Shown here in pieces: positions 1 to 23,673 of a stretch of 64,000 nt of DNA; the stretch's first letter is position 1; every line of letters begins with the position of its first letter. The stretch lies in the NCBI RefSeq assembly GCF_057098645.1, contig NZ_CM169472.1. One strand, given 5' to 3'. The position numbers and the translations under genes are program-made. The notes below the pieces were generated by a model. The model saw nothing but the letters and a program-made list of their open reading frames with translations. It did no database searches and was not told where the DNA came from.

Positions 1-138
1 GATGTTAGTCGCAGCGCTGTTAACCCAAAAAGATAATAACCTGATACATCAACTGTCTGCGCTTTTTGAATTTCACTATCAGCAAGCCCCACAGCAATTA
101 GGGGTAATCTATCAATATTATTTTGAACAAGCAGGAGT

Positions 139-3100
139 ATGTCATTGATGGACGTTCAGCAACTGCATTATGCGCCACTTCTAAATCAGCTTCATCAGCG
201 TGCGGTGAGGTCGGTGGTAAGTCAGTTGGCATTGCGGAGCAAGTCGTTGACTCATTATCTGGAATCACAATATTTTCAGCCTCCCGGTCAGGAGGGGTCA
301 CTGCTTGCAGACCCGGTATTCGAAAGTACATTCGGCTGGATGCCTGCGGATGAAACAATGGAGGATTTGCGGGACAAGCTGATCTCCAGCCCGCTGGTTG
401 ATGCATTGAGCAAAGCGCCAGTGCCATTTCGTCATCAACTTACTGCGTGGCGAACGATTCTGGAAGACAAAAAATCCTTGTTAGTGAGCAGCGGTACGGG
501 ATCCGGGAAAACAGAATGCTTTATGGTACCGGTTCTGGAAGATCTTATTCGTCAGCAAAAATCGACCCGCCAGTCACTAACAGGGACACAAGCTATTTTC
601 TTGTATCCGTTAAATGCATTAATTAACAGCCAACAGGAGCGGCTTCGCGAATGGACGCGCGGATTTAAGGGGAAAATACGCTTCGCGCTATATAATGGCG
701 AAACCCGGCATACCAAATACGAAATTCAGGAAGATCAGTTGAAAGTACCTGAACAAGCTTTGAGTCGGGAAGCCATTTATGAAGCACCACCTTCCATCAT
801 GGTGACGAATACCACCATGCTGGAATATATGCTGATTCGTCGTAAAGATGCCCCAATCATCGAAAAGTCTCAGGGGATGTTAAAGTATATCGTCCTGGAT
901 GAAGCCCATAGTTATATTGGTTCTCAGGCTGCTGAGTTAGCGCTGCTTTTACGTCGTGTTATGCAGGCTTTCAATGTTGGACCCGGCACAGATAAACCTG
1001 TGCAGATTATCGCGACCTCTGCCACTATTGGTGAAGACTCTCCTGAAGGTAATAAGGAGCTTGCTAAATTTGTCGCTGATCTCGCGGGCGTTACAGAACG
1101 TGATGTCAAAGTGGTTCGCGGTTATCGACAAATACCGCGGGTATCGGAGTCGCTGATTCGTCATGAATACCCCACATCTTTAACTTCTCTTAAATCCCTG
1201 AGCCCTCAGGATCTTTACCAACAGCTTTGTCATTACCGTGTGGCCCAGCAATTGCGTCAGGCGTTAACTCATCCCGGACGGCAGGCAGTACGTTTGAGTG
1301 AGTTGCTCAATGTTGCCAGAAGAACCTGGCCAGATATTAATCACCGTGAGCTACTGCAACTCCTCGATCTAATGGCAAGATCGCGAGAAGGTGAACTGGC
1401 TTTTACGCCATTACGTATGCATGGGTTTATCAGAACACTGGCGGGTCTATGGGCATGTTCAAACAAACAATGCTCACATAAAGCACATGAATTAAATCAG
1501 AGTGACTGGCCATTTGGTCAGGTATGGTTTGAGCAGCGCCAATATTGTGACTGTGGAGCGCCGGTATTTGAAGTTTTACGTTGCTCCGGGTGTGGTTCAG
1601 CTTATTTGTCTGCCAAAGAGGAGATGCGCGGTGATGGAACGAACTGGTTGGTAGCGCAACCAGCCGCTGCCGAAGTGGATGAGTTTGCTCTTGATGTAGA
1701 TGTTTATTCTGAAGATGAAGACAACGACGAATTAGACAATAACTCTCAATTTGATCGTCTGATTGCGAGCGATGGTGAAAAATATATCATTTCACTGGAA
1801 GAAACGACGGCGGGGAAAATTGATAGTGAAGCGCAAAAGCACTATGAAATAAACCTGTTAAGACCGGAATCTCGAGGTGAGGGACGCAATAACTCCTTTG
1901 CTTGTGTTTGCTGTGGTGACACTCAACGGAAAAATAATCCTTTATTCCGTCCGCTTCGGCTCGGCGCGCCCTTTTTTTTAAATGAAATTATTCCTACTCT
2001 GCTGGAGTTTTCTCCATTACCGCAAACAAGAGAAGAGCAGTTAGGACCGTTTAATGGTCGACGCTTGCTCACCTTTACGGATTCGCGTCAGGGTACCGCT
2101 CGCATTTCAGCCCGCTTACAGCAGGATGCCGATAAAGCGACGTTGCGAGCTCTTTGTTACCAGGAACTGGCAAATATTACAGAGCCTTCAGCAAAACTCA
2201 GCCCGGCACACTGTGCACTGTTAGAGAAAGTTATTAGCCAGTTTTCTGTCCTCCCTTTAAAAAATTCCATCGACGCGCTGAAAAAAGCGATGGCTGCGAA
2301 TGAGGAGCTTAGCCCGACGGACATTCAGGCACTTAAAATTATTGAGCCGATGGTGAGTTCCTTAAGCACGGAGCATGCTGAAGCGATGCAAATACTTCAG
2401 GCTAACTCTGGCAATCAGCAGAAGAAAACCATGTCATGGCAAACGCTGTCTGAACAGCTGGTTGGCAGTGTGGACCTTGCCGATAGAATGAGAGGCAGTT
2501 TTAAAGAATTGTCTGGGCTTGATCTTACTAAACAACAGTTTGCAGATTTTTGTTTATACAGCGAGTTTGGTCGCCGCCCTAAAAATGCCTGGACCCTCGA
2601 AAGTCTGGGTCTGGTAGCCATTCACTATCCATTCATTGATAAAGTTACAACCTGCCCGCAGGACTGGAAGACATTATTACCCGATCCCGATAAGCAATTA
2701 GCGGAATGGCGTAATTTATTGAAGATTACTCTTGATTTCTTTATCCGTGAAAACAGTGCCGTTTTTTACGAAAACGAGCAATACCCTCGCTGGATGGGGG
2801 CACGTTTCCCGGTAAAAATGCTCCAGGGGCCAGATAAAAAAAACAAAGGGCAGAAACGTGATCAACTTTGGCCACAAATACGCGATCGCCATTATAACCG
2901 GGTCATTAAGCTATTAATCGCAGTCTTTCCGGCAATACAACCTGAGCAGGCTCACTGGAAATCGTTAGTTAACCACTTAATGATTGAGGTCTGGGATGCA
3001 ATTCGACCCTGCTTACGTCAGTTTGAGTCGGGTTATCAGCTGGATATTAAACAACAAGCTGAATTTTACAGTCCAAAGCAAGTGTGGCGTTGCCCCTATA

Positions 3101-6462: not shown

Positions 6463-6469
6463 ATAATTG

Positions 6470-6496
6470 CTCCCCTGGGGATATCTTCCAGGGGAG
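6470..6496 (+). terminator. Stem-loop immediately after gene 1 stop (stem ctcccctgg / ccaggggag); possible terminator or RNA-stabilising hairpin
   Basis: 9-bp perfect inverted repeat with 9-nt loop starting 8 nt after the TAA at 6460-6462; no immediate U-tract. Confidence 0.3.
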
Positions 6497-6581
6497 TTGA
6501 CCCAGCTCACTTTTTAATAATTTTTGTTTGAAAATCATGCGCAATTTATGCGCATTCCCTCCCATTTTGTCACTTTGCCGG

Positions 6582-6617
6582 GGGCCTTCATGATATCTTT
6601 AAGGCCCTCTTTTTTAT
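6582..6617 (+). terminator. Candidate intrinsic terminator between gene 1 and gene 2
   Basis: gggcc...ggccc 5-bp stem with 16-nt loop followed by tcttttttat; weak stem and long loop. Confidence 0.3.
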
Positions 6618-6685
6618 CGCAGTGTGCCGCGCCACATTTTTCAGGATGACGTTACCGCCACTGCCCCAAATAGACAGAAAAACCG

Positions 6686-9544
6686 ATGAATAAGCAAAAT
6701 TATGCACCTGGTATGCGGGTGGTTATTCGTGATGCCGAATGGCGTATTCGCCGGGCGGATGACAGTGGTGATGGTGGGTATTTGCTGACCTGCGATGGTA
6801 TTTCAGAGCTTGTGCGCGGTAAAGAAGGGTTATTTCTGACCAAACTGGAACAAAAAGTAGAGATCCTGGATCCCGCAAAAACGCATTTGGTGGAAGATGA
6901 ATCCGCCAATTATCAAGCGGCGCAGTTGTATATCGAAAGTCAGTTACGCCAACGCGTACCGACAGACAGTAAAGTCCATTTTGGTCATCTGGCGGCGATG
7001 GATTCCATGCCGTTTCAGCTCGATCCTACGCGGATGGCGCTGGCACAACCGCGTCAGCGGATACTCATTGCCGACGCTGTCGGTCTGGGTAAAACGCTGG
7101 AAGCGGGTATTCTGGTTTCGGAGCTGATCCGTCGTGGGCGCGGAAAACGTATTCTGGTTCTGGCGGTCAAATCGATGCTGACACAATTCCAGAAGGAGTT
7201 CTGGAGCCGTTTTGCGATCCCATTGACCCGCCTGGATTCTGCTGGTTTACAAAAGGTGCGTAACCGCATCCCAACCAACCACAACCCGTTCCACTATTTT
7301 GACAAGACCATTATCTCCATCGATACGCTGAAACAAGACATTGAATATCGTCACCATCTGGAAAATGCCTGGTGGGATATTATTGTCATTGATGAGGCCC
7401 ATAACGTCGCAGAACGTGGAACCAGTTCGTTACGCAGTAAACTGGCAAAACTGCTCGCCGGGCGTAGCGATACGCTGATTATGCTTTCAGCAACGCCGCA
7501 TGATGGTAAGGCTGAAAGTTTTGCCAGCCTGATGAACATGCTTGACCCGACGGCGATCGCCAACCCGAAAGAGTATGAATACGCCGACTTTGCCGATAAA
7601 AATCTGGTTGTCCGTCGCTTCAAAAAAGACGTGAAAGATCAGATGTCCGGCGAGTTCCCCGAGCGCAATATTGTCAAATTGACTCGCCTGGCATCCGGTG
7701 CCGAAGAAGAAGCATACCGTCGTCTGGTTGAGAGCCAGTTCCGTGATGATGACGATGAACAGGCCCAGTCTAACAAAGGTCGTCTGTTCAAGATAACCCT
7801 CGAAAAAGCGCTATTTTCCAGCCCGATGGCGTGTGCCAGCGTCGTGGCGAATCGTCTGAAGCGTCTTGAGAGCCGTAAAGATCATAATAGCCAGAGCCAG
7901 ATCAACGAACTGGAGTCATTGCTGTTGGCGCTGAATAACATTGATGCCAGCCAGTTTAGCAAATACCAGTTGCTGCTCGACACCATCCGAAAAGACCTCG
8001 CCTGGAAAGCCAATAACACGGAAGATCGCCTGGTGATCTTCACCGAAAGTATTAAAACGCTGGAGTTCCTCGAACAGCAACTGCGAGCGGATCTGAAATT
8101 GAAAGATGACCAGATCGCCACGCTGCGCGGCGATCAGGGCGATACGGTATTGATGGAAACCGTAGAAGCCTTTGGTAAAACGCAGTCGCCGTTGCGTCTT
8201 CTGGTTTGTTCGGATGTGGCATCTGAAGGGATCAACTTGCATCACCTTAGCCACAAAATGATTCACTTTGATATTCCGTGGTCGTTGATGGTATTCCAGC
8301 AACGTAACGGGCGTATTGACCGCTATGGGCAAAAACATCAGCCCCAAATCCGCTATCTGCTTACTGAGGCCAGCGAACCACAGATCAATGGCGATATGCG
8401 CGTACTGGAAGTGTTGATCAACAAAGACGAACAGGCGCAGAAGAACATTGGGGACAGTTCGGAGTTTACCGGCAAATTTACCCAGGAAGAGGAAGAAGAG
8501 CAGGTTGCAGAGTTCATGATGCAGGATGATGGTGCCAGCCTGTTTGATCAACTGCTGAACAGCAACGTCTCGGAAAGCGCCGAACACGATCTGTTTGGCG
8601 AAATATGCAGTGCGGTTTCCAGCGATGCCTCAATGGTCACCGAAGCAGACACCAGCTTGTTTGCCAGCGAACAGGCGTACTGCGAAAGAGCATTGGGTTA
8701 CCTGAAAGCCAGTGGTCAAACTATCCAGTATGAAACCTTGCCTGATAATACCTTGTCGCTGGTGGCACCGGAGGAGTTACGCCGCCGCTTCAACCAGCTA
8801 CCGCCTGAAATCGCCCCGGAGAACTGGCAGCTCTATTTAAGTCAGGATAAAACCGTCATCACCGACGCGATTGCACGCGCTCGCGGTGAGCAACATGCCT
8901 GGCCCGATGTGCAGTATCTCTGGCAAATCAACCCGGTAGTGCAGTGGCTGGACGATAAAATCTCTTCGGCTTTTGGTCGTCATCAGGCACCAGTTATCCG
9001 TCTGCCATACCTGCTTGAACCCGATGAAGATCACTTCATTCTTTCCGGGTTATTCCCGAACCGTAAATCACATCCGATGGTGAACCCGTGGATAGTGGTG
9101 AGCTTTAACCGTGAATCGCTAATCGGCAGTCAGCCATTCGCTGAGTTTTTACAACGTCATCCGCAGTTGAGTAACAAGCTGACTAACAGCGGCGGTAAAG
9201 ATCGTAATCACCAACGCCAGCAGGATTTACTTGAAGCGGCTATTGCTCATGCCCGGGAGGTATTCATCCATGATCGGAATGCGTTTGAAACGCACATTAA
9301 CCAGCAACTGAATGAGCATCTGCAAAAGCTGGACGTTTTGCGTGGGCGGCAGTTGAGCCAACTTGAGCTGGATTTTGCCGATAATAAACAGCAATTGTCA
9401 GTCAAGCAGAGCCGTAAAGAGCAGAGACAACGCGAAATCGAACACAATTTTGACAGCTATATCGAATGGATTGAGGACACCATGACGACTGAAAAAGAAC
9501 CCTACATTCAGGTAATTGCTGTTATCACCGGAGCGGAGGGTTAA
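6686..9544 (+). CDS. SNF2-family (SF2) helicase/ATPase, DISARM DrmD-like, 952 aa
   Basis: 2859-nt ORF. Motif I DAVGLGKTLEAG, motif II IVIDEAHNV, LSATP, C-terminal FQQRNGRIDRYGQK characteristic of SNF2/RAD54-type ATPases. Confidence 0.85.
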   Translation: MNKQNYAPGMRVVIRDAEWRIRRADDSGDGGYLLTCDGISELVRGKEGLFLTKLEQKVEILDPAKTHLVEDESANYQAAQLYIESQLRQRVPTDSKVHFGHLAAMDSMPFQLDPTRMALAQPRQRILIADAVGLGKTLEAGILVSELIRRGRGKRILVLAVKSMLTQFQKEFWSRFAIPLTRLDSAGLQKVRNRIPTNHNPFHYFDKTIISIDTLKQDIEYRHHLENAWWDIIVIDEAHNVAERGTSSLRSKLAKLLAGRSDTLIMLSATPHDGKAESFASLMNMLDPTAIANPKEYEYADFADKNLVVRRFKKDVKDQMSGEFPERNIVKLTRLASGAEEEAYRRLVESQFRDDDDEQAQSNKGRLFKITLEKALFSSPMACASVVANRLKRLESRKDHNSQSQINELESLLLALNNIDASQFSKYQLLLDTIRKDLAWKANNTEDRLVIFTESIKTLEFLEQQLRADLKLKDDQIATLRGDQGDTVLMETVEAFGKTQSPLRLLVCSDVASEGINLHHLSHKMIHFDIPWSLMVFQQRNGRIDRYGQKHQPQIRYLLTEASEPQINGDMRVLEVLINKDEQAQKNIGDSSEFTGKFTQEEEEEQVAEFMMQDDGASLFDQLLNSNVSESAEHDLFGEICSAVSSDASMVTEADTSLFASEQAYCERALGYLKASGQTIQYETLPDNTLSLVAPEELRRRFNQLPPEIAPENWQLYLSQDKTVITDAIARARGEQHAWPDVQYLWQINPVVQWLDDKISSAFGRHQAPVIRLPYLLEPDEDHFILSGLFPNRKSHPMVNPWIVVSFNRESLIGSQPFAEFLQRHPQLSNKLTNSGGKDRNHQRQQDLLEAAIAHAREVFIHDRNAFETHINQQLNEHLQKLDVLRGRQLSQLELDFADNKQQLSVKQSRKEQRQREIEHNFDSYIEWIEDTMTTEKEPYIQVIAVITGAEG

Positions 9545-9546
9545 TC

Positions 9547-12500
9547 ATGGCGCTGGTCGGTATTAATAACGAAAACGAATTTTACTCTAACCACTATTTG
9601 GGTGAGGTTTTCACCAGTGATATCCGCGATGTGCTGGAACCCTGGATAGCCAAGGAAAATGCAGCGCGTGAAGCGGAGCGTGCCGCTCGTGAACAGGGCA
9701 AAGACGTGGAGCCGGGATACCGCGCTCCGTGGAACCAGTTTAACAGTCTGGCGACTGAGTTTTTCCGCAAACTTGCCGAGCACGAAAAACAGCGTCAGAT
9801 CCCGCAGCGTCTGGCCGATCAACGTAATCGCTGGCAGCCATTGTTAAAGGCGCTGGGCTACGAAATTACGCCACAGATCCAAATGCTGGATGACGATACA
9901 CCGCTGCCGGTACTGGCGCGTTACAACAGCACTGACGGTAGCCCGTGGCTGTGGATTGTTGAAGCACACGATCAGGAAGAAGGAACGCTGGATCCGCTGG
10001 CGCTCTCCTTACTGACCGCGCAATTCCCGGCGGATACCGACAAACATAAGCGCGACAGCCTGCGCAAAAAAGCCAACGGTGAATATCGCAGCTGGCAGGA
10101 TCTGCTCTCTACGGCGGTCTTCACCCAAAATGAACCGCCGCGTTTTGTGCTGCTGCTCGGTAACCGTCAGCTCTTGTTGTTGGACCGTACTAAGTGGGCG
10201 CAAAACCGTCTGCTACGTTTTGATTTTGAAGAGATTTTAAGCCGTCGTGAAACGGATACGCTGAAAGCGACTGCGGTGTTGTTACATAAAGATTCTCTGC
10301 TGCCGGGCAGTGGGGCACCTTATCTTGACTCGCTGGATGACAATTCGCACAAACATGCGTTTGGTGTTTCGGAAGATCTGAAATATGCCCTGCGCGAAAG
10401 CATTGAGTTGCTGGGCAACGAAGCGATGCATTATCTGATCGACCGTGGCCTGGCAAACTATACCGGTAACCGTGCGGTGGACCCGGATGAACTGAGCCGC
10501 GAATGTCTGCGTTACATGTACCGCCTGCTGTTCCTGTTCTACATTGAAGCGCGCCCGGAGCTGGGTTATGCGCCAATGACTGCCAAAACTTATCTACAGG
10601 GCTACAGCCTGGAAACGTTGCGCGATCTGGAGATGATCCCGCTGACCAGCGAAGAAGATCGCAACGGGCGCTACTTCCACGACAGCCTGAATATGCTGTT
10701 TAAACTGGTGCGCGAAGGCTACAACGGCGGCGTGAAAATGCAGAGTGACCTGGAGAGCGGCGACCGGATCACCATCCATAGTCATCAGTTCAGCGTCCCG
10801 CGTCTGGAAAGTCATCTGTTTGATGCCAACAACACGCGCATTCTTAACCGCGTGGTATTCCGTAACGAAACCCTGCAACAGATTATCCAGGCGATGTCGT
10901 TAAGCCGCCCGGCCAAAGGGCGCTTTAACCGCCGCGGACGTATTTCTTATCGCCAGTTGGGTATCAACCAGTTGGGTGCGGTGTATGAGGCGCTGCTCTC
11001 CTATCGTGGATTCTTCGCCAGCGAAGACCTCTACGAGGTGAAGAAAGCCGGGGAAGAGTTTAACGAGCTGGAGACAGGTTACTTCGTCAGTAAGGATGAG
11101 ATTGGCAAATACCACGAAGACGAGAAGGTCTACGAGAAAGACGGCAGTCTGCGCATTCACCGCAAAGGCAGCTTTATCTACCGTATGGCCGGGCGCGACC
11201 GTGAGAAATCTGCCTCTTATTACACCCCGGAAGTGCTGACCCGCTCACTGGTTAAATATGCCCTGAAAGAACTGTTTAAGGAGCAGATTGATCCCATTAG
11301 CGATCCGCACGCCAAAGCTGATGCCATCTTAAACCTCACCGTGTGCGAACCGGCGATGGGCAGCGCGGCGTTCCTTAACGAAGCCATCAACCAGCTGGCG
11401 GAAGCGTATCTGTTCCACAAGCAGCAGGCGGAAGGTCGCCGTATTCCGCAGGATCGTTACACCCAGGAGTTACAGCGGGTGAAAATGTACATTGCCGACA
11501 ACAACGTTTTCGGCGTGGACTTAAACCCGGTGGCGGTGGAACTGGCGGAAGTGTCACTGTGGTTGAACGCCATCAGTGGCGATGCCTTTGTACCGTGGTT
11601 TGGTTACCAGCTGCACTGCGGTAACTCACTGGTGGGCGCGCGCCGTCAGGTGTTCAACAAGAGTGAACTGACCTACAAAAAAGCCAAAGATCCGAGCTGG
11701 CTTAACAGCGAGCCGGTCGAACTGGCGATGAACACGCCGCGTGAAGAGACGCAGATTTTCCACTTCCTGCTGCCCGACGGCGGTATGGCTAACTACAGCG
11801 ATAAAACTGTTAAGCAGCGTTATCCGGATGACTTCAAAGCCCTGGACAGCTGGCGCAAAGAGTTTATTAAAAGCTTTGCCGGGCATGAGATTGCTGATGT
11901 GCAGCGTATCAGCGAAAAGGTGGAAGCTCTGTGGAACACTTATCGCCAACAACTTAAAGCAGAACGTCTGAAAACCGCCGACAGCTACCCGGTGTGGCCG
12001 GCAGAAAACAGCGAGCAGACGCGTTCTTCGCTGAGCAGTAAAGATGAAACCTTTAGCGGTCGTCTTGAAGATAACAGCGCCTACCAGAAGCTGCGTTGGG
12101 TAATGGACTACTGGTGCGCGCTGTGGTTCTGGCCGATCGACAAAGCCGATGAGCTACCGGATCGCGGCACCTGGTTGTTTGAGATTGAAACCCTGCTCGA
12201 CGGGATTGTAATCACGGAAAAAGTCACTGAAGTTGCGGAGCACACCACCGGCGATCTGTTTGCCGAAGAAGGCCTGCTGCGAGAAGAGTCTTCGCTGTTT
12301 TCCGTTGCTGGTCGTCTGAAAACCGAGGTGTTGTTCCGTCATTTGCCGCGTCTGGCGATTGTCGATGCCCTGAGAAAGCAGCACCGTTTCTTCCACTGGG
12401 ATCTGGAGTTCTGCGACCTGTTTGCCGAGCGCGGCGGTTTTGACCTGATGCTCGGAAACCCGCCGTGGCTGAAAGTGGAATGGCAGGAAGCGGGCGTGCT

Positions 12501-14457
12501 GGGTGATTACGAGCCGGAATTTGTGCTGCGTAAGCTGAGCGCCTCGAAGCTGGCAACGTTGCGTGTTGATACCTTTAACCAGATCCCGGCACTGGAAGCG
12601 GCCTGGCGCAGCGAGTATGAAGGCTGTGAAGGGATGCAAAACTTCCTCAATGCGCAGCAGAACTACCCGGTACTAGCAGGACAAAAAGCGAATTTGTATA
12701 AATGTTTTCTACCTCTGGGGTGGCGCTTAGGGGCGCAGAAAGGTGTCGTAGGGTTCCTGCATCCGGAAGGAATTTATGAAGACCCGAAAGGGGGAAAACT
12801 GCGTGGGGCGGTCTATCCAAGGTTAAGAGCTCATTTTCAGTTTCAAAATCAGCATATGCTTTTCCCTATCGGTGACAGGGTTAAGTTTAGTATTAATATC
12901 TACACCGCGTTTGTAAGTGATCATATTGGCTTCATTAGTATTGCAAACTTATTCTCGGCAAAAACGATTGAACTGTGTTTGTCGCATGATGGAACTGGAG
13001 AAGTGGGTGGTATTAAAGATGACGAAACCGACTCATGGAACGAATCAGGACACCAAAGCCGCATATTGAAAGTATCGTTAGAGCGGCTTTCCTTGTTTGC
13101 TAATTTGTATGATGAGCTAGGTATACCTGCGATTGAGGCCAGATTACCTGCTCTTCATGCGGATCACTTGGTGTCTGTGCTTGAGAAATTTGCTAAGCAG
13201 CCAACTAGATTGAGTGACTTAGAAAAAGACTATTATTCAACCCAACATTGGAACGAAGTTAATGCTCAGGATGATGGGATAATCAGACGCGAAACCCAAT
13301 TCCCGGAAGACGCATCCCAATGGATTTTGTCTGGTCCGCACTTCTATGTTGGAACACCGCTTTATAAAACGCCGAGAGAAATTTGCACAGAGAAAGGACA
13401 TTATGACTGCCTGGACTTGCTAACTCTGCCCGACGACTATCTGCCGCGCACTAACTATATTCCAGCATGTGATGCACAGGAGTATGCAAAGCGCACCCCA
13501 CGGGTTTCGTGGAAAGAACAGGATGAAGACGAGCCGAGGAAGGTGACGGATTATTATCGTCATATAAATCGAAGAGCCATTGGTTGTTCTTCGGAGCGAA
13601 CTGCTATAGGTGCAATTATACCCAAAGATGTCGCTCATATAGATGGGGGATTCTCATTAACTTTCAAAGACCCTAAACAACTGGTGATTTTTAATACCAG
13701 CTTCAATTCCTTACCTTTTGACTTTGTAATTAAAACAACGGGTAAAAGCGATTGTCGGGCGGAATTAGTAAAAATTTTACCAATGCTTTCAGATATAGGG
13801 ACAAGGCTATTTGCTCGGGGCTTAGTTAATAATGCAATAACAGCGCATTACTCCGATCTCTGGCAATCCTGCTACACCCCAGACTTCAACACCCAGCGTT
13901 GGAGCCGCGATCTCCCGCTGCTGCCCCAGGATTTCTTCGCCAATCTGACCCCAGAGTGGCAGCGTAACTGCGCCTTACGCTCCGACTACAGCCGCCGTCA
14001 GGCGCTGGTGGAAATCGACGTACTGGTGGCGCAGGCGCTGGGGTTAACCCTCGAAGAGCTGCTTACCATTTACCGTGTACAGTTCCCGGTTATGCGCCAG
14101 TACGAAGCGGACACCTGGTACGATCAAAACGGTCGTATTATCTTTACCCCAAGCAAAGGGCTGGTGGGCGTTGGCTTGCCGCGTACCGCGCGTAAAGCTG
14201 ACCTGAAAAACGGCTTTGTCTTTAACGTCGACAGCCCGGACTGGACCGGCGGTGACTGCACCGATCAAGCCATCGGCTGGGATGATGTCAAACATCTTAA
14301 AACTGGTACCGTCAGCGTCACCTTTGATGACTATACCCGCAGCGACGAAGGCGAGCGCCGTACCGTCACCTGGCAGGCACCGTTTATCAAGCCGGATCGC
14401 GAAGACGACTACAAAGTGGCCTGGGCGTTCTTTGCACAAGATAAGGAGAGCGCCTGA
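9547..14457 (+). CDS. Large gamma-class N6-adenine DNA methyltransferase (PglX / DrmMI / type IIG-like), 1636 aa
   Basis: GGAGGG RBS at 9534-9539; start 2 nt after gene 2 stop. SAM motif I-like CEPAMGSAAFL, GVDLNPVAVELAEVSLWL, catalytic motif IV NPPW at 12457-12468. Confidence 0.85.
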   Translation: MALVGINNENEFYSNHYLGEVFTSDIRDVLEPWIAKENAAREAERAAREQGKDVEPGYRAPWNQFNSLATEFFRKLAEHEKQRQIPQRLADQRNRWQPLLKALGYEITPQIQMLDDDTPLPVLARYNSTDGSPWLWIVEAHDQEEGTLDPLALSLLTAQFPADTDKHKRDSLRKKANGEYRSWQDLLSTAVFTQNEPPRFVLLLGNRQLLLLDRTKWAQNRLLRFDFEEILSRRETDTLKATAVLLHKDSLLPGSGAPYLDSLDDNSHKHAFGVSEDLKYALRESIELLGNEAMHYLIDRGLANYTGNRAVDPDELSRECLRYMYRLLFLFYIEARPELGYAPMTAKTYLQGYSLETLRDLEMIPLTSEEDRNGRYFHDSLNMLFKLVREGYNGGVKMQSDLESGDRITIHSHQFSVPRLESHLFDANNTRILNRVVFRNETLQQIIQAMSLSRPAKGRFNRRGRISYRQLGINQLGAVYEALLSYRGFFASEDLYEVKKAGEEFNELETGYFVSKDEIGKYHEDEKVYEKDGSLRIHRKGSFIYRMAGRDREKSASYYTPEVLTRSLVKYALKELFKEQIDPISDPHAKADAILNLTVCEPAMGSAAFLNEAINQLAEAYLFHKQQAEGRRIPQDRYTQELQRVKMYIADNNVFGVDLNPVAVELAEVSLWLNAISGDAFVPWFGYQLHCGNSLVGARRQVFNKSELTYKKAKDPSWLNSEPVELAMNTPREETQIFHFLLPDGGMANYSDKTVKQRYPDDFKALDSWRKEFIKSFAGHEIADVQRISEKVEALWNTYRQQLKAERLKTADSYPVWPAENSEQTRSSLSSKDETFSGRLEDNSAYQKLRWVMDYWCALWFWPIDKADELPDRGTWLFEIETLLDGIVITEKVTEVAEHTTGDLFAEEGLLREESSLFSVAGRLKTEVLFRHLPRLAIVDALRKQHRFFHWDLEFCDLFAERGGFDLMLGNPPWLKVEWQEAGVLGDYEPEFVLRKLSASKLATLRVDTFNQIPALEAAWRSEYEGCEGMQNFLNAQQNYPVLAGQKANLYKCFLPLGWRLGAQKGVVGFLHPEGIYEDPKGGKLRGAVYPRLRAHFQFQNQHMLFPIGDRVKFSINIYTAFVSDHIGFISIANLFSAKTIELCLSHDGTGEVGGIKDDETDSWNESGHQSRILKVSLERLSLFANLYDELGIPAIEARLPALHADHLVSVLEKFAKQPTRLSDLEKDYYSTQHWNEVNAQDDGIIRRETQFPEDASQWILSGPHFYVGTPLYKTPREICTEKGHYDCLDLLTLPDDYLPRTNYIPACDAQEYAKRTPRVSWKEQDEDEPRKVTDYYRHINRRAIGCSSERTAIGAIIPKDVAHIDGGFSLTFKDPKQLVIFNTSFNSLPFDFVIKTTGKSDCRAELVKILPMLSDIGTRLFARGLVNNAITAHYSDLWQSCYTPDFNTQRWSRDLPLLPQDFFANLTPEWQRNCALRSDYSRRQALVEIDVLVAQALGLTLEELLTIYRVQFPVMRQYEADTWYDQNGRIIFTPSKGLVGVGLPRTARKADLKNGFVFNVDSPDWTGGDCTDQAIGWDDVKHLKTGTVSVTFDDYTRSDEGERRTVTWQAPFIKPDREDDYKVAWAFFAQDKESA

Positions 14458-17400
14458 TGCTGCCGTCCGTTGTCAGTCGGCAGGTCGCCGACAGCGTTGC
14501 CGCCTTTTTACGGGCGGCGTTCCCGCTAAACAGCCCGCTGTTTAACGGTGAGAATAACGATAATGTCTCAATGCTGGAGCAATTTCTGGCCCAGCCCGAA
14601 ACGCTGCTGAAAGGACCATACCTTTCCGCCCAGTTGCCGTTTCGTAAAAGTGACTTACCACTGAATTTCTTCCCTAATCTGACGCTGCCGTTCCCGCCGC
14701 ACGCGCATCAGGCCCGGGCATTTCAGCGTCTGGGAAGCGACGCGCCACAGCCGACACTGGTCGCTACCGGTACCGGCTCCGGTAAAACAGAATGCTTTAT
14801 GTTCCCGCTGCTCAACCACTGCGCGGGCGCGTCACATGCCGGGGTTAAAGCGATTATCATCTACCCGATGAACGCCCTGGCAACCGATCAGGCCAGCCGT
14901 TTCGCCAAAACCATCGCCAGCGATCCACAACTGCATGGCAAGGTGACCGTCGGCTTGTTTGTCGGCGACAGCGAAATCGAACCCAGCAAGAAAATGTCGG
15001 CAGAAAAGGTCATTACCTGCAAGCACACGCTGCGCGAAAGCCCGCCGGACATCCTGTTGACCAACTACAAAATGCTCGACTACCTGCTGATGCGCCCTGG
15101 CGATCAGCCGCTCTGGCGTTACAACCAGCCCGGTTCATTGCGTTACCTGGTCGTGGATGAATTGCATACGTTTGATGGCGCGCAAGGGTCGGATCTGGCC
15201 TGTCTGGTGCGACGTCTGAAGCATCACATAGGTGTGGATAACCAACGATTCGCCTGCGTCGGGACATCAGCTACCGTCGGCGACGAACTGGGGCAACTGC
15301 TCGATTACGCAAAAACAATCTTTGACCAGCCGTTTACCGATGACGCCGTTATTCGCGAAGATCGCTACACGGCAGCGGAGTACTTGCAGGATTATGCCAT
15401 TGCGTACAGTCAGTATCCGGGGCCGGAGGCCGCTTCGGCCCTGGACCCGCAGAGTTACTCTACCCCGGTAGCGTATCTCAACGGGCAAATCCCTTTGTGG
15501 TTCCCCGACAGCGATTTGCAACTCCCGGACGATCTGGAGAGCGACGACGGGCGTGAAAAGCGTATTGCGCTGGGGTCACTGTTACGCCGCCACAGCGTGA
15601 TGCATGTCTTACTCCATGATCTGCAAGGCGGGATCCTCTCTGAGCGAGAGTGTCTGGAAAATCTCCAGGTCATGCTGGCAGAAAGCGCCGACCATGCCCG
15701 ACGCGTGCTGCAAAGCATTCTGGCGCTGATCGCGCAGGCACGTCTCGAAGTACCGGAAACGGAACACGATCGTCAAAAACGTCTCCAGGCGAAGAAAGCG
15801 CGTCCGGTGCTGCCGTTTGTGCAACTGCGCTCCCAGTTGTGGCTTCGTGAGATGCGTCGTCTGGTCGCCAGCGTGGCGAAAACGCCGCGACTGGTGTTTG
15901 CCGATGATGTGGCGGTGGAAGACCGCGAACACTATTTGCCGGTTATCCACTGCCGTGACTGCCATGCAACCGGCTGGGCCAGCCTGCGTCATGGGCAAAG
16001 CGTTCAGCTGGAAACAGACCTCGACGGCATTTATCGCCAGTTCTTTGAAAAAGGGCGCTCCATCGTCCTCGCTTTCCCGGATAATAACGAAAAAGCGGTC
16101 AGTGGCGCACACCAGAAACTGTGTCCTACCTGTCTGAAACTTAACCGACAGTCCAGCGTCCAGTGTGGACATTGCGGTCATACGGAACTGTTGCAGGTAC
16201 TGATCCCGGATATGCTCAAAGAGCGTAAGGACGAGCTGGAGTTTGCTAATGAATGCCCGTACTGCAACAGCAAACAGGGGATTTCGATCCTGGGGTCACG
16301 GGCTGCCAGTCTGTCGGCGGTGATGATTCACCAGCTTTATGGCAGCCAGTTCAACGAACATAAAAAGCTGATTACGTTTTCTGACTCGGTACAAGACGCC
16401 GCGCATCGTGCCAGCTTCTTTACTGCCCGAACCTGGCCGCTGATGATTCGTGGGCAAATCGCCAGTGTTCTTGGCGAAAAAGAGACATTACCGCTGGATG
16501 CGTTCGCGGCGCGTGTTTGCCAACAAACGCGTGAACGTTCACCGGACGATGCTCATTTTGCAGCGAACTTCATCGCACCAAATATGCAGTGGCTGAATGA
16601 TTATCAGACGCTGAAAAATGAAGGCAAACTGGCGGAGAACTCCGATCTGCCGGAGCTGGTTTCCCTGCGCCTCGACTGGGAGGTGTACAGCGAATTTACC
16701 CTGCGCGCGCGTATCGGACGTACGCTGGAAGCCACCGGTTATGCCGTTGCCGGAGTGGATAAAGATCGCTTTAATCCGGCAATTACCGCCCTGCATCAAC
16801 AGCTTTGTGAAGAGCTGGGTGATGAGATGTCCGGTGTGAGCGTCGAGCAGGTAGCGCACCTGGCGCTGGGGGTTATCTGGTATCAACGCCAGGCCGGGGC
16901 CGTTATGCATCCGGCGTTCGAAAGTTATCGCCGTGATGGCACGACCTTTATGATGACGCAAAAAGAGCGTACATCGCGCTATATGCCTTCTATCGGTCCG
17001 AAAACGCGTAAACCGGCTTATGCGTCGTTTGAAAAAATTAATGGTTTCCATCGCCTGATTGGCGCGAAGTCTAACCCCAGTTGGTATCAGCATTGGATCA
17101 ATCGCACGCTGAGTAACGGCAATAATCTGTTTATCAGTAGCGTTGCGGAAACAGTGTTACGACGCCTGTTTACGGCGTTGAAAATAGCCGGAGTAGTAAA
17201 AGATTTTGACACCAAAGGGCGTGAAGCCTGGGGACTGGTGCCTTCGGCGCTGGTGGTGAGCCGTGACGTCGTTCAGCTTAATTGCTCATGTTGCCGTGAG
17301 GTTGTCCGGGCTCCGGCCGATCAAGGCTGGCAGTGGCGTAATGCGCCTTGTCTCTCTTTACGTTGTGAAGGTCGTTACCTAGAAGTCGACAATATGGCGA

Positions 17401-20400
17401 CCTGGCGTTGGGAGAACATGGACATCGCGCGCGTGCAGGGCGCAGAACACACGGGGCTGCTTAGCCGTGAAGATCGCGAAGCCACCGAAAAATCGTTCTA
17501 CCGCGGCAACCAACCGTGGAATATCAACCTGTTGTCGGCAACACCGACGCTGGAGATGGGTATTGACGTTGGGGATCTTTCCACCGTTTTACTCTGTTCT
17601 GTCCCACCTGCTCAGGCCAACTACTTGCAACGTATTGGTCGCGCCGGTCGTAAAGATGGTAACGCGTTAAACATTACCGTGGCAGAAGGGAACCCGCACG
17701 ATCAGTTTTTCTTTGAAGAACCACTGGAGATGATGCAGGGCCAGGTGCAGGCTCCTGGCGTCTTCCTCAATGCAACGGCTATTCTCGAACGCCAGCTGGC
17801 AGCTTTTTGTATGGATAACTGGGTGAAAACCGGTGTACCAGAATCCGCTATCTGTAAAAACGTCAAACAGATGCTGGATGAGCTGGAGTTCGGGCGTAAA
17901 TCGGGTTTTCCGTATAACTTACTGCGATATATCGAACAGCATCATGCGGAGATTGCTGCGCAATTTACGGCAATCTTCCCCGATCTTGCCGCAGAAACTC
18001 GCCAACAGCTGTTGTCTTATCTTCAGGGCGCGCCAGGACAACGCTCGCTGGTGCAGCGTATCGAAGAAGCGTTAAAACTGCTGGTGGAAGATCGCAAATC
18101 TTTGCGCTCACGCATCGATAAACTCAAGCGCAGTATCGATAAACTGGAGAACGCGCCGCGCGATCAAAACTTTGATAGCGATATGCGCGAGTTAACTTCG
18201 GAACGGCAGGCGCTGATGGCGCTGGTCAATCAAATCAACAATAAGCAAACGCTGAATTTCCTCACGGATGAAGGTCTGCTGCCTAACTACGCCTTCCCGG
18301 AAGCCGGTATTACGTTACGTTCTGTGCTCTGGCGGCGTAAAGAAGGCGGGGAAGCACGTGAATATCAAAACACCACTTTCGAATATGAACGCCCGGCATC
18401 AACGGCGCTGGCTGAGCTGGCTCCGCTGAATAATTTCTATGCCGGTGGGCATAAAGTTGAAATTGAGCAGATAGACCTGAAGGTCTCTGAGCCGGAGAAC
18501 TGGCGTATCTGTAGCCACTGTAACTACAGCGAAAATATCGACCAGACGGGCGACCAGCATAAATATTGCCCGAAATGTGGCACACCGGGGTGGGCCGATG
18601 CCGGACAAAAAACCACGCTGCTGAAACTTCGCCAGGTTTATGCCCGCGCCAGCGCACGTGATAGCCAGATCAGCGACGAGAGCGACAGCCGTGAACCTGC
18701 TTTCTTCCAGCGTCAGCTATTGGTTAGTTTCGAAAAAGAAGATGTATCGGCGGCATACGCGATTGAGGAAGGCGAAGTTCCGTTTGGTTTTGAATTTTTA
18801 AGCAAAGTCACCCTGCGGGATATCAACTTCGGCAAAATGGCGGATGATGCCAATGAGTTGATGATTGCCGGAGAAGCGAAGAAGCGAACCGGGTTTAAAG
18901 TTTGCCTCGGGTGCGGCATGGTGCAGCGTCCTCGCGATCATGAACCACGTCATGATTTGAGCTGCAAATATCGCACGGAACCGGAAAAGGCGAAGTTCGA
19001 AGATTATCTCTACCTCTATCGCCAGCTGGAGTCAGAAGCGTTGCGTATTCTGCTCCCGGTAAGCAGTTACAGTAATGACCGTGTCGTGGAGGCTTCTCTT
19101 GGGGCGGCGATCCAGCTCGGTCTTAAACATTACTTCAAGGGGAATGTCGATCACCTGAAAGGCGTTGTGTACCGCGAGCCGGAAAATGAAGGCGAATCCT
19201 GGCGGCAGTATCTGGTGATTTACGATACCGTCCCGGGGGGGACTGGTTCTCTTAAAGAACTGATGCGCACTCCCGACAATTTGCTGAAATTACTTGAACT
19301 GGCCTATCAGGCAATAGTGGAATGCAGTTGCAACAATGATACGCATAAAGATGGTTGTTATCGTTGCGTTTACGCTTACCGTGACCGTGGGCGCATGAAG
19401 TATGTCTCCCGCGATCAGGCGCGTCTCTTGCTGGCGAAAATTTTGCAGGCAAGAGATTCGATACGGGTAATTGATTCCATCAAAAACATTTCCCTCGAAG
19501 CCATGATGGGCAGTGAGCTGGAAAAACGGTTTATTAGCTGCCTGCAAGAAAATAAAAACCTGATTGTCAGTCGCAGTTACGCGCATCAGGGCGCTGGGTG
19601 GATTATTAACACCCGCAGCGAACCGATGATGAGCTGGCATCTTAAAGCTCAGGTGGATTTAGGCGCTAAAGAGGCGGTGGGGATCCCTTGTCGCCCGGAT
19701 TACGTGCTATATCCGCTTATGCAGTCTGATGCCATTAAACCGGTGGTTATTTTCCTTGATGGCTTTGCGTTCCACAAAAATAGCGTCGCAGAGGATGTGC
19801 AAAAACGCCAGGCGATTCGGGATAGCGGTAATTTCTGGGTGTGGACAGTCACGTGGGCCGATCTCAAAGAGCCTGGGCTTAAACATGTTCAGGATGTCCT
19901 GGGACTTGGGCATAACCCGGATATGAAACAGCCTAAGTTTTATAACCTGTTTCATGATACCAACTTTGCGGCCCTTGAAGCGTCGTTCCGGGAACGCAAC
20001 AGTTTTGCACTGCTGCTGGATTATCTCGCCGATCCGGGCGGAAGAACGCAGTTATGGCAGAGAATGGCTGCTGCACATGCCTGGGTGTGGTTGGATGTGA
20101 AGAAGTCACAGGACGCGGGAACGAAACAAAAGTATGCCTATGAAATGCAGGAAAACGCGCCAGCCTGGCGGCTAGCAGAGCTTTTGCCAGACGAACCGTT
20201 TGTCTTTGGTGGTTTACTCGATAGCTGTAACTCATCGCAGCAATTTATTGAGCTGGCTTCGGTGTTGCCACAACAAGCCATTAAACCGACGACCAGCGTC
20301 GCACAAATGCGCAGCTGGCTGCGTTTGCATATCTGTTTTGACGATCGCTATACGCAGGATGACGGTTATGAAGCGGGACTCAATGGCTTCTGGCGACTGG

Positions 20401-22909: not shown

Positions 22910-23673
22910 TAATATGTCCAAAACAGACCAGGAGCCGAAACGCTCCTGGTCTATATAACCGTTCTGGCAACTGGCGATATTTATATTGCTTAGCTCCCAA
23001 CAGCCAGACAATATCAACTTAGAAATTATATTCGCTTATGCGGTTTGCATATTGCACAGTACAACCTGTTTTCTCTATATCTAACGTAACGTCAGGATGT
23101 GGATGATTTTTGGATGGGGTGACACACTGGACAAATATAGCTGGCACGAAAAGGCTGGCATTTCCAGCTGACCAATAGTCTCTGGAACCATGATGATGAT
23201 AAAATAAATATCTTAAGTTTTAAACGTATGATGCCAGGATTACCAGAATTATAAACGAATATATTAGTTCTTTTCTATTTGTTCAGGAGGGGTATAAAAA
23301 TTGCAATTGTTAATAGTATCGTCAGGACGATAAAAAGATAATCATGACAAAGGAAATTGAACTAAAATGATTGACATTTTACAGGTGGTTTGTCAGTGAT
23401 TTCTTGTTATTCATAATTTATTTTCCGTAAAAAATAGTAAGGTGATCACCTGAATAAAGGTAATCTCATATTTTGATGAGTATAGTGATTTTTTATTTCT
23501 CTGGTGAGGAATGAAGGAAATATCAATGGTAAGGAACGTCAGAGAATCAGGGAAAATTAAGGTCCCTCAGAAACACAATGCCGTTCACTTAAGCGGGGCG
23601 GCACTGTGTTTCACAGGATAACGGGTTTTTGATATCTTAACCGCCCTCGCCCTTGATGGTCGGGGGCGTTTTG

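What the first reader, a model, noticed from the sequence alone, without database searches (positions are those of the whole stretch)
6463..6685. Gene 1 may be a separate transcription unit: hairpins and a TGCGCA palindrome in the only sizeable intergenic gap of the island
Genes 2-5 are fused into one operon, but gene 1 is followed by a 223-bp gap. It holds a 9-bp perfect stem-loop right after the stop (6470-6496), a second hairpin with a T-tract (6582-6617), and the imperfect palindrome ATGCGCAatttaTGCGCAT (6536-6555) that looks like a dimeric regulator binding site. This suggests gene 1 is expressed or regulated independently of the SNF2/methylase/helicase operon.
Basis: seen in the sequence. 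Interest (0 to 1): 0.4.

Follow-up and report, generated by a model that had tools for sequence, protein, structure and literature searches.

The report
Boundary between two phage-defence operons
The 223-base gap is the junction between two already published E. coli anti-phage systems, Druantia III (gene 1 plus a partner gene upstream) and ARMADA II (genes 2-5); it holds an end-of-operon hairpin and the ARMADA promoter/leader, so it is real but ordinary.

Summary
The locus is the E. coli defence island OI-172. Gene 1 is druE (type III Druantia). Its partner druH lies almost wholly upstream of the window and overlaps druE by TGATG, so gene 1 is not a lone unit. Genes 2-5 are armABCD (ARMADA type II).

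Two 2025 preprints already treat these as separate systems. One cloned ARMADA from the first base after the druE stop codon, antisense to the vector lac promoter, and it protected cells. The gap therefore probably contains the armA promoter.

Comparison across genera adds three points:
- The whole gap travels with ARMADA, not with druE. The same leader follows a different, unannotated two-gene cassette in Enterobacter and Mangrovibacter.
- Only hairpin 1 is structurally conserved, with compensatory changes in 4 of 10 pairs.
- The TGCGCA palindrome and the stem of hairpin 2 are strong only in the E. coli lineage. The T-tract block is conserved as far as Aeromonas for another, unknown reason, possibly an extended -10 promoter.

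No transcript ends are mapped in anything I could read. Interest is low: a known boundary of ordinary anatomy.

The parts
1..148 (+). 3' end of druH (STY4851/ECs_5259 family). Its stop TGA at 146-148 overlaps the druE start.
   Evidence: annotation of the identical region in NZ_AP018488.1; the full-length protein scores 2552 bits against DruH3; sequence TGATG.
RefSeq start is 148; the longest ORF starts at 139.
   Evidence: (DruE3, 2182 bits, full length).
6463..6685 (+). druE-armA intergenic gap, equal to the ARMADA II leader module. It is the exact 5' end of the published pARMADA insert.
   Evidence: conserved as a unit, 223 nt in five genera; the 3' part of primer FN1701 equals 6463-6485.
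6469..6497 (+). Hairpin 1: GC-rich stem (9 bp perfect, 12 bp with G-U pairs), no U-tract directly after it. Read as the 3'-end hairpin of the upstream operon or an insulator at the start of the leader.
   Evidence: -21.2 kcal/mol; 92% of cells paired, 4 of 10 pairs changed on both sides across three sequence types; orthologues fold at -19.1 and -24.4 kcal/mol.
6497..6524 (+). Promoter candidate P1: TTGACC, 15-16 nt spacer, TAATTT/AATTTT. Predicted start near 6530.
   Evidence: score 7.5 in E. coli and 10.8 in Siccibacter and Mangrovibacter (TTGACC-16-TATCGT), poor in Serratia and Yersinia. Not above the shuffle range.
6537..6555 (.). Perfect 7+7 palindrome ATGCGCA-N5-TGCGCAT, specific to the E. 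coli lineage.
   Evidence: I7; -9.2 kcal/mol; 70% paired, no compensatory change.
6556..6579 (+). Unpaired C/U-rich linker UCCCUCCCAUUUUGUCACUUUGCC between the two E. coli-specific hairpins.
   Evidence: unpaired in the MFE fold; aligned to the CCUCCC motif of Rfam mmgR; no island ribosome-binding site pairs better than background.
6567..6599 (+). Promoter candidate P2: TTGTCA-16-CATGAT, or extended -10 TG-a-TATCTT (6591-6599). Predicted start about 6601-6608.
   Evidence: 9 of 12 matches. TGnTAnnnT is kept in E. coli, Siccibacter, Serratia, Yersinia and Aeromonas.
6580..6617 (+). Hairpin 2 plus U6: intrinsic-terminator-like element in the O157-type E. coli allele. The stem is not conserved elsewhere.
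   Evidence: -15.1, versus -8.5, -1.4 and -1.2 kcal/mol in other alleles and genera; 58% paired, 0 compensatory changes.
6586..6629 (+). Best-conserved block of the gap: CTTCATGnTA(n)TCTTTAAnnCCCTCTTTTTTATCGCAGTGTGCC. A 1-nt indel shows it is non-coding. Function not established.
   Evidence: invariant columns, conserved to Aeromonas.
6671..6688 (+). In-frame TAG (6671-6673) closes the armA frame upstream. ACAGACAGAAAAACCG-ATG is the conserved translation-initiation region.
   Evidence: (DrmD model 350 bits, below its cut-off of 610).
9547..14457 (+). armB, a PglX/type IIG-like adenine methyltransferase.
14457..20798 (+). armC, a YprA-like helicase with a C-terminal nuclease region.
20795..22909 (+). 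armD, a GajB/UvrD-like helicase.
22925..22952 (+). 12-bp GC-rich hairpin 16 nt after the armD stop, also without a U-tract. Same style of operon-end hairpin as hairpin 1.

Best explanation
The gap is the junction of two co-directional but separable anti-phage operons of the E. coli defence island OI-172: druHE (type III Druantia; gene 1 is druE) and armABCD (type II ARMADA; genes 2-5).

Shown:
- The protein identities.
- druH-druE start/stop overlap.
- The gap is a conserved 223-nt module that stays attached to armA when the upstream partner changes.
- Hairpin 1 is under structural selection.
- A published clone that begins at the first base of the gap and lies antisense to Plac gives armA-dependent phage protection.

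Inferred:
- druHE transcripts end in the gap. Hairpin 1 serves as the stable 3'-end structure. In the O157-type allele, hairpin 2 plus U6 acts as a canonical intrinsic terminator about 150 nt after the stop codon.
- armABCD is transcribed from a weak sigma-70 promoter inside the gap. The better-conserved candidate is the extended -10 element TGaTATCTT (6591-6599), which overlaps hairpin 2, so an mRNA started there would lack the terminator's left arm. The alternative is TTGACC-N16-AATTTT (6497-6524).
- The TGCGCA palindrome is a lineage-specific feature with no demonstrated role.
For: - PADLOC scores: DruE3 2182 bits and DruH3 2552 bits. ArmA-D resemble DrmD, type IIG/DrmMI methyltransferase, DruE and GajB.
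- RefSeq annotation and the TGATG overlap.
- Literature names the operons druHE (z5897-98) and armABCD (z5899-5902) and shows that each works after deletion of the other.
- pARMADA primer FN1701 starts the insert at window 6463, and the armD end is joined to the Plac side. The plasmid protects BL21-AI, and deleting armA abolishes protection.
- Among 58 loci from different species with at least 3 kb upstream, DruE precedes ArmA in 8. The other 50 have a median gap of 260 nt, and 19 have an opposite-strand neighbour.
- Z5899-Z5902 occur alone in Salmonella, and 17 E. coli strains carry ARMADA II only.
- The same leader, from hairpin 1 to the ATG, follows cassette X instead of druE in Enterobacter wuhouensis and Mangrovibacter.
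- Hairpin 1: three sequence types, 4 of 10 pairs with double changes, 92% of cells paired, -19 to -24 kcal/mol.
- A similar hairpin closes armD.
Against: - No 5' or 3' ends are mapped in any source I could read. The EDL933 Cappable-seq tables held here stop near 0.5 Mb.
- No promoter candidate scores above shuffled sequence.
- Hairpin 1 lacks an adjacent U-tract, so it is not a canonical intrinsic terminator.
- The hairpin 2 stem is weak or absent outside one E. coli allele, so druHE termination there is unexplained.
- The druE-armA adjacency is kept down to about 50% protein identity, and the gap is only about 8 nt in one gammaproteobacterial MAG (L029). Read-through co-expression is therefore plausible in some lineages.
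- Vector read-through into pARMADA cannot be excluded from the primer data alone.
- In the druHE deletion strains the druH promoter is retained upstream of the gap.
Confidence: 0.7

Rival explanations
1. One long druHE-armABCD transcription unit. The gap hairpins are RNA processing or stability elements, or partial terminators that set the stoichiometry of the two systems. ARMADA expression in the native island depends mainly on the druH promoter.
For: - All six genes are co-directional, and their adjacency is conserved down to about 50% identity.
- The gap is about 8 nt in L029.
- Hairpin 1 has no U-tract, and hairpin 2 is weak in most lineages.
- The two systems act synergistically.
- No promoter candidate exceeds chance.
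Against: - pARMADA, with only the 223-nt gap upstream and antisense to Plac, is functional and needs armA.
- Most ArmA loci lack DruHE and sit behind long gaps or divergent genes.
- The leader is retained behind a different upstream cassette.
Confidence: 0.15
2. In the E. coli lineage the gap encodes a short RNA of about 86-90 nt that acts as an sRNA or leader attenuator. It would start near 6530 from TTGACC-N16-AATTTT. It would carry a 5' hairpin (the TGCGCA palindrome), a single-stranded CCUCCC-containing linker, and the hairpin 2 plus U6 terminator. armABCD would then be expressed by terminator read-through.
For: - Whole-length match to Rfam mmgR/suhB: 25.1 bits, E 0.002 for the 223-nt search. 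The alignment matches hairpin, CCUCCC motif and terminator in order.
- The 89-nt RNA folds exactly into that anatomy (-24.3 kcal/mol, z -3.1).
- P1 is positionally conserved in the E. coli, Siccibacter and Mangrovibacter group.
Against: - The score is far below the family gathering threshold of 41, and terminators often produce such matches.
- mmgR is an alphaproteobacterial family.
- The palindrome and the terminator stem are not conserved in other genera, and the stem is weakened in a second E. coli allele.
- The linker pairs with no island ribosome-binding site better than background.
- No sRNA at this locus turned up in the literature searches.
Confidence: 0.15
3. The TGCGCA palindrome is the operator of a dimeric transcription factor that controls armABCD.
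For: A perfect 7+7 inverted repeat with a 5-nt spacer lies between the two promoter candidates. About 10% of shuffled gaps contain any 7-bp inverted repeat.
Against: - Perfect only in E. coli. It is a 5+5 core at best in Siccibacter and Enterobacter, and A-C or G-U mismatches appear on different strands.
- Absent in Serratia, Yersinia and Aeromonas, although the rest of the leader is conserved there.
- Neither system encodes a DNA-binding regulator.
- pARMADA works in BL21-AI without other island genes.
Confidence: 0.08
4. The gap is mainly a DNA-level recombination junction, that is, shared linker sequence at which defence cassettes are swapped upstream of ARMADA.
For: - The identical leader follows either druE or cassette X.
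- E. coli genomes carry cassette X followed by leader stubs of different lengths.
- The gap length is exactly 223 nt in five genera.
Against: - The stubs are explained more simply by deletions or IS insertions that removed ARMADA: an IS end abuts the stub in 1218KP.
- No recombinase site or repeat family was found.
- The gap sequence occurs nowhere else in 5,426 E. coli genomes.
- This reading does not exclude the transcriptional role.
Confidence: 0.1

Closest known systems
Type III Druantia (DruH-DruE), as in E. coli OI-172 (z5897-z5898), ATCC 8739 and ECOR19
   Same: Gene 1 matches DruE3 over its full length. Its upstream neighbour matches DruH3 over its full length, and the two overlap by TGATG. 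The locus is the very one studied.
   Different: Nothing differs at the protein level. An older paper called Z5898 an RNA helicase that regulates motility.
ARMADA type II (armABCD; Bell et al. preprint PMC12458937; Li et al. preprint 10.1101/2025.09.22.677730)
   Same: Same strict gene order: SNF2/BrxHII-like helicase, PglX-like methyltransferase, YprA-like helicase, GajB-like helicase. Same island. The published pARMADA insert starts at window 6463.
   Different: The papers describe no promoter, terminator or leader. The conserved 223-nt leader and its hairpin are described here only. The window's armB allele is closest to O145:H28 strains, not EDL933.
DISARM class 1 (drmD-drmMI-drmA-drmB-drmC)
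   Same: ArmA and ArmB give partial hits to DrmD and DrmMI, and ArmC resembles a DrmA-DrmB fusion.
   Different: ArmA scores 350 bits against a DrmD cut-off of 610. There is no separate DrmB or PLD DrmC, and there is an extra GajB-like ArmD. The cluster is not DISARM.
Rho-independent terminators and 3'-end stabilising hairpins at operon ends in enterobacteria
   Same: Hairpin 2 has a GC-rich stem followed at once by UCUUUUUU. Hairpin 1 and the hairpin after armD are strong GC-rich stems 7-16 nt after a stop codon.
   Different: Hairpin 1 has no adjacent U-tract. Hairpin 2 has a 12-nt loop, and its stem is not conserved.
Rfam RF00519 (mmgR/suhB, alphaproteobacterial sRNA with CCUCCC motifs)
   Same: Same order of elements: a 5' hairpin, a single-stranded CCUCCC motif, a terminator and a U-run. 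The match covers the whole model.
   Different: 25.1 bits against a gathering score of 41. Different phylum. Not conserved among enterobacterial orthologues of the gap.

Membership tests
Type III Druantia | Large YprA/DUF1998 helicase DruE of the type III clade | tested here: met
   PADLOC DruE3 PDLC00037: 2182 bits, residues 9-2105 aligned to profile positions 4-2051 of 2055.
Type III Druantia | DruH encoded immediately upstream in the same operon | tested here: met
   DruH3 PDLC00041: 2552 bits over 1117 of 1117 profile positions. Stop and start overlap as TGATG.
Type III Druantia | Confers phage resistance | not testable with these tools
   Reported for this island in EDL933 and ATCC 8739.
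ARMADA type II | Gene order: SNF2/BrxHII-like helicase, PglX-like methyltransferase, YprA-like helicase, GajB-like helicase, tightly packed | tested here: met
   ORF coordinates; PADLOC and NCBIfam hits; definition of the order.
ARMADA type II | Identity with the published experimental system | tested here: met
   - Primers FN1701, TG179 and TG436 match window 6463-6485, 6463-6512 (reverse complement) and 6627-6685.
- EDL933 ArmC is WP_000937974.1, the paper's type II representative.
DISARM class 1 | DrmD equivalog above the curated cut-off; separate DrmA, DrmB and PLD DrmC | tested here: not met
   NF038317 scores 349.9 bits against a cut-off of 610. No PLD gene, and a single fused helicase.
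Intrinsic (Rho-independent) terminator: hairpin 2 | GC-rich stem followed at once by a U-run | tested here: met
   9-bp stem, -15.1 kcal/mol, followed by UCUUUUUUAU.
Intrinsic (Rho-independent) terminator: hairpin 2 | Short loop (3-8 nt) and conservation of the stem in orthologues | tested here: not met
   12-nt loop. 58% of cells paired, no compensatory change. Energies of -8.5, -1.4 and -1.2 kcal/mol in other alleles.
Intrinsic (Rho-independent) terminator: hairpin 1 | U-run directly 3' of the stem | tested here: not met
   The stem is followed by UUGACCCAGCUCAC. The first U5 run comes 14 nt later.
Structured RNA element under selection: hairpin 1 | Base pairs kept through compensatory substitutions | tested here: met
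   4 of 10 pairs changed on both sides, 92% of cells paired. Caveat: only three independent sequence types.
Sigma-70 promoter in the gap | -35 and -10 match above chance | tested here: inconclusive
   Best PWM score is 9.2, against a shuffle median of 8.3 and a 95th percentile of 11.5. One site of 9 of 12 matches found by the consensus scan.
Sigma-70 promoter in the gap | Drives expression of the downstream gene | not testable with these tools
   Indirect evidence only: pARMADA with the gap as its sole upstream native sequence is functional.
Rfam RF00519 mmgR/suhB | Score at or above the gathering threshold | tested here: not met
   25.1 bits against 41.
Operator of a dimeric regulator (TGCGCA palindrome) | Both half-sites conserved in orthologous leaders | tested here: not met

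The most novel reading that the evidence does not exclude
In the E. coli lineage the ARMADA leader has evolved into a small transcription unit. It would comprise the promoter TTGACC-N16-AATTTT, a 5' hairpin, a CCUCCC-containing single strand, and an intrinsic terminator, giving an RNA of about 86-90 nt from 6530-6617. This RNA would attenuate or tune armABCD expression, or act in trans as an island-encoded sRNA that links the two synergistic defence systems.
Probability: 0.15. Interest if true: 0.5.

Novelty: already known. Interest (0 to 1): 0.2.

Why it matters
The finding mainly corrects the annotation. The "island" is the published Zorya II / Druantia III / ARMADA II array, and the gap separates two systems that were shown in 2025 to act independently and synergistically. 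This work adds little biology, but it is practical for anyone engineering or measuring these systems:
- The 223-nt leader is the unit that moves with ARMADA II.
- Only its first hairpin and one T-rich block are conserved, so these are the places to look for the terminator and the promoter.
- The conspicuous palindrome is probably not a conserved operator.

Tried and rejected
- **Published transcript ends.** Searches for ECs5259-63, z5897-5900 and OI-172 with sRNA terms found no mapping. The EDL933 Cappable-seq supplements are held only up to about 0.5 Mb, so coordinates 5,422,442-5,422,664 could not be checked (one search timed out). The Sakai dRNA-seq/Term-seq paper has no supplement held.
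- **Rfam.** Only a sub-threshold mmgR match.
- **Coding potential of the conserved block.** A 19-codon ORF (6590-6649) exists in E. coli, but a 1-nt indel in the Serratia/Yersinia group shifts the frame while the nucleotides stay conserved. Rejected.
- **N-terminal extension of ArmA.** Some gene callers give 973 or 986 aa. E. coli has an in-frame TAG at 6671. Rejected.
- **Other motifs, checked by eye.**
  - Sigma-54, sigma-28, CRP and dif/XerCD-like sites: spacing or key bases do not fit.
  - LexA box: the CTG-N11-CAG near the ribosome-binding site has the wrong spacing in E. coli.
- **PWM promoter scan.** No candidate exceeds shuffles.
- **Pairing of the C/U-rich linker** with the translation-initiation regions of the zor, dru and arm genes: all within background.
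- **Small hairpin at 6622-6637.** Not more stable than shuffles, and its apparent covariation rests on an uncertain alignment.
- **Distant ArmA loci** (60% identity or less): the upstream regions are not alignable, so they say nothing about the leader.

Full report
**Observation.** The gap is real: 223 nt (6463-6685) between the stop codon of a 2,100-codon ORF and the start of a tightly packed four-gene cluster.
- All three features exist:
  - Hairpin 1: 6470-6478 / 6488-6496, 12 bp with G-U pairs, -21.2 kcal/mol.
  - A perfect palindrome ATGCGCA-N5-TGCGCAT at 6537-6555.
  - Hairpin 2: 6580-6588 / 6601-6609, -15.1 kcal/mol, followed by T6.
- They exceed chance. The 64-kb window has only about 11 distinct perfect hairpins with arms of 9 bp or more.
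- Only 0.3% of shuffled gaps contain one, and about 10% contain any perfect 7-bp inverted repeat. The gap has three independent ones.

**What the locus is.**
- The region is 100% identical across 6200-6900 to E. coli O157:H7, O145:H28 and O55:H7 chromosomes and is present in about 530 of 5,426 complete E. coli genomes and 17 plasmids. The window's armB allele is closest to O145:H28 strains.
- RefSeq context shows, in order: type II Zorya (divergent), an STY4851/ECs_5259-family gene, gene 1, the gap, then genes 2-5.
- PADLOC identifies the upstream gene as DruH3 (2552 bits) and gene 1 as DruE3 (2182 bits). Genes 2-5 resemble DrmD, a type IIG/DrmMI methyltransferase, DruE and GajB.
- The druH stop overlaps the druE start (TGATG at 146-150). 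Gene 1 is therefore the second gene of druHE, and the window cuts off the first.
- Two 2025 preprints describe exactly this array on O-island 172: zorABE, druHE (z5897-98) and armABCD (z5899-5902, ARMADA type II). [quoted passage not shown]
- An older paper had called Z5898 an RNA helicase that affects motility. It noted that Z5899-Z5902 occur alone in Salmonella.

**Is the gap a boundary of transcription units?** No source available to me maps transcript ends. The indirect evidence is good.
- Supplementary primers of the ARMADA paper show that the pARMADA insert begins with ATAATTGCTCCCCTGGGGATATC, which is window 6463-6485, the first base after the druE stop.
- The armD end is joined next to CAGGAAACAGCTATGACCATGATTACGCCA, the Plac side of lacZ-alpha. 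The operon is therefore antisense to Plac (the vector orientation is from my own knowledge of pUC/pGEM-type lacZ-alpha).
- That plasmid protects BL21-AI against 13 phages, and deleting armA abolishes protection. The 223 nt therefore very probably contain a working promoter.
- The deletion strains keep the whole gap (TG179 is the reverse complement of 6463-6512).

**Comparative analysis.** A scan of one genome per species with an ArmA alignment returned 80 loci.
- Among the 58 with at least 3 kb upstream, DruE directly precedes ArmA in 8.
- The other 50 have a median upstream gap of 260 nt, and 19 have an opposite-strand neighbour. ArmA is thus normally the first gene of its own unit.
- Where DruE precedes ArmA, the gap is exactly 223 nt in Escherichia, Siccibacter, Serratia, an Enterobacter MAG and Yersinia proxima. 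It is about 134 nt in two vibrios and about 8 nt in one MAG.

**The gap travels with ARMADA, not with druE.**
- In Enterobacter wuhouensis and Mangrovibacter, ARMADA II is preceded by a different pair of genes ("cassette X", 1569 + 743 aa). The sequence from hairpin 1 to the ATG is nevertheless the same as in Siccibacter, where druE is upstream.
- E. coli strains 1218KP and A29 carry cassette X followed by a 75%-identical copy of gap bases 6491-6671 that is cut off by an IS end. Other strains keep only the first about 50 nt, or break inside the hairpin.
- These are best read as remnants left after loss of ARMADA.

**Which gap elements are conserved?**
- **Hairpin 1** is kept in three sequence versions: CTCCCCTGG/CCAGGGGAG, CTCCCCCAC/GTGGGGGAG and CCCCCTGCC/GGCAGGGGG. 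Double changes occur at 4 of 10 pairs, 92% of cells are paired, and energies run from -19 to -24 kcal/mol.
- **The palindrome** is perfect only in E. coli. It is partly kept as a 5+5 core in the Siccibacter/Enterobacter group and absent in Serratia, Yersinia and Aeromonas, with no compensatory change.
- **The hairpin 2 stem** is not conserved: 58% paired, no compensation, and -8.5, -1.4 and -1.2 kcal/mol in other alleles.
- **The T-tract block** is nevertheless the best-conserved stretch of the gap, out to Aeromonas. It comprises the right arm of hairpin 2, the T-tract and the following bases (6586-6629, ...CATGnTA(n)TCTTTAAnnCCCTCTTTTTTATCGCAGTGTGCC).
- A 1-nt indel inside the block excludes coding.
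- It contains a positionally conserved extended -10-like motif TGnTAnnnT (6591-6599).

**Promoter candidates.** A simple PWM finds two positionally recurrent candidates. P1 is TTGACC-N16-AATTTT (6497-6524) and P2 is 6567-6599. Neither beats shuffled sequence.

**Most likely mechanism.**
- druHE mRNA ends in the gap. Hairpin 1 is the selected 3'-end structure. It has no adjacent U-run, which suggests a stabiliser after Rho-dependent or downstream termination. A similar U-less hairpin follows armD.
- In the O157-type allele, hairpin 2 plus U6 adds a canonical intrinsic terminator.
- armABCD starts from a weak promoter in the gap. If that promoter is P2, transcription begins inside the right arm of hairpin 2, so the armA mRNA lacks the terminator.
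- If it is P1, hairpin 2 is a leader attenuator and the region 6530-6617 would also yield an RNA of about 86-90 nt. That RNA's anatomy matches Rfam mmgR over the whole model, but only at 25 bits against a threshold of 41.
- The linker of that putative RNA pairs with no island ribosome-binding site better than background.
- Partial read-through from druHE remains possible and could matter for the reported synergy.

**Verdict.** The systems and their separateness are already published, and the fine structure of the leader is ordinary. Interest is low.

Noticed in passing
L002:11007-17944 (E. coli 1218KP); also L007:2811-9748, L008:2811-9748, L003:7066-14003, L004:7061-14003: "Cassette X" is two overlapping co-directional ORFs of 1569 and 743 aa with no hit in PADLOC, Pfam or NCBIfam. 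It sits exactly where druHE sits, directly upstream of the ARMADA II leader, in Enterobacter wuhouensis and Mangrovibacter. It also occurs in about 127 E. coli chromosomes at the leuX/nanC-fim hotspot. It is a candidate uncharacterised defence pair and an alternative partner of ARMADA II.
   Followed up: partly
window 6463-6685 and L006, L009, L010, L013 at 9778-10000: The druE-armA gap is exactly 223 nt in five genera, despite about 60% identity between the most distant pairs and several 1-nt indels that cancel out. This may reflect a spacing constraint or may be coincidence.
   Followed up: no
window 22925-22952: A 12-bp GC-rich hairpin lies 16 nt after the armD stop and has no U-tract after it. 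It is the same style as hairpin 1 after druE.
   Followed up: no
window 9547-14457: The window's armB (1636 aa, intact) is 99.9% identical to O145:H28 strains, where the region is annotated as two hypothetical proteins. It is only 95-99% identical to most O157:H7 genomes, whose armB is 1644 aa. This fits the reported hypervariability of armB. The window is therefore probably not from EDL933 or Sakai.
   Followed up: partly
L029:9980-9989 (uncultured gammaproteobacterial MAG); L015 and L017 about 9855-9989: In distant DruHE-ARMADA arrays the gap shrinks to about 8 nt (L029) or about 134 nt (Vibrio agarilyticus, Enterovibrio). The transcriptional coupling of the two systems therefore probably differs between lineages.
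   Followed up: no
L085:6582-16859 (Shewanella indica): An ArmA homologue (84% identical) is preceded by an overlapping 140-aa ORF. It is followed by the methyltransferase and then directly by a UvrD-like protein of at least 1,022 residues, instead of a YprA-like ArmC. This is a variant architecture inside a P4-like element carrying integrase, AlpA and RadC.
   Followed up: no
window 6623-6688 and protein ids P0002, P0018 and others: Many database entries for ArmA homologues are 19-32 residues longer (973 or 986 aa). E. coli has an in-frame TAG at 6671-6673, so the shorter start (ATG 6686) is the conserved one and the long forms are probably miscalled starts.
   Followed up: partly
window 148-6462: Z5898 (druE) was published in 2013 as an RNA helicase that regulates fliC and motility, and OI-172 was named a motility-associated island. 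That reading predates the gene's recognition as the Druantia III effector, and the two have not been reconciled.
   Followed up: no
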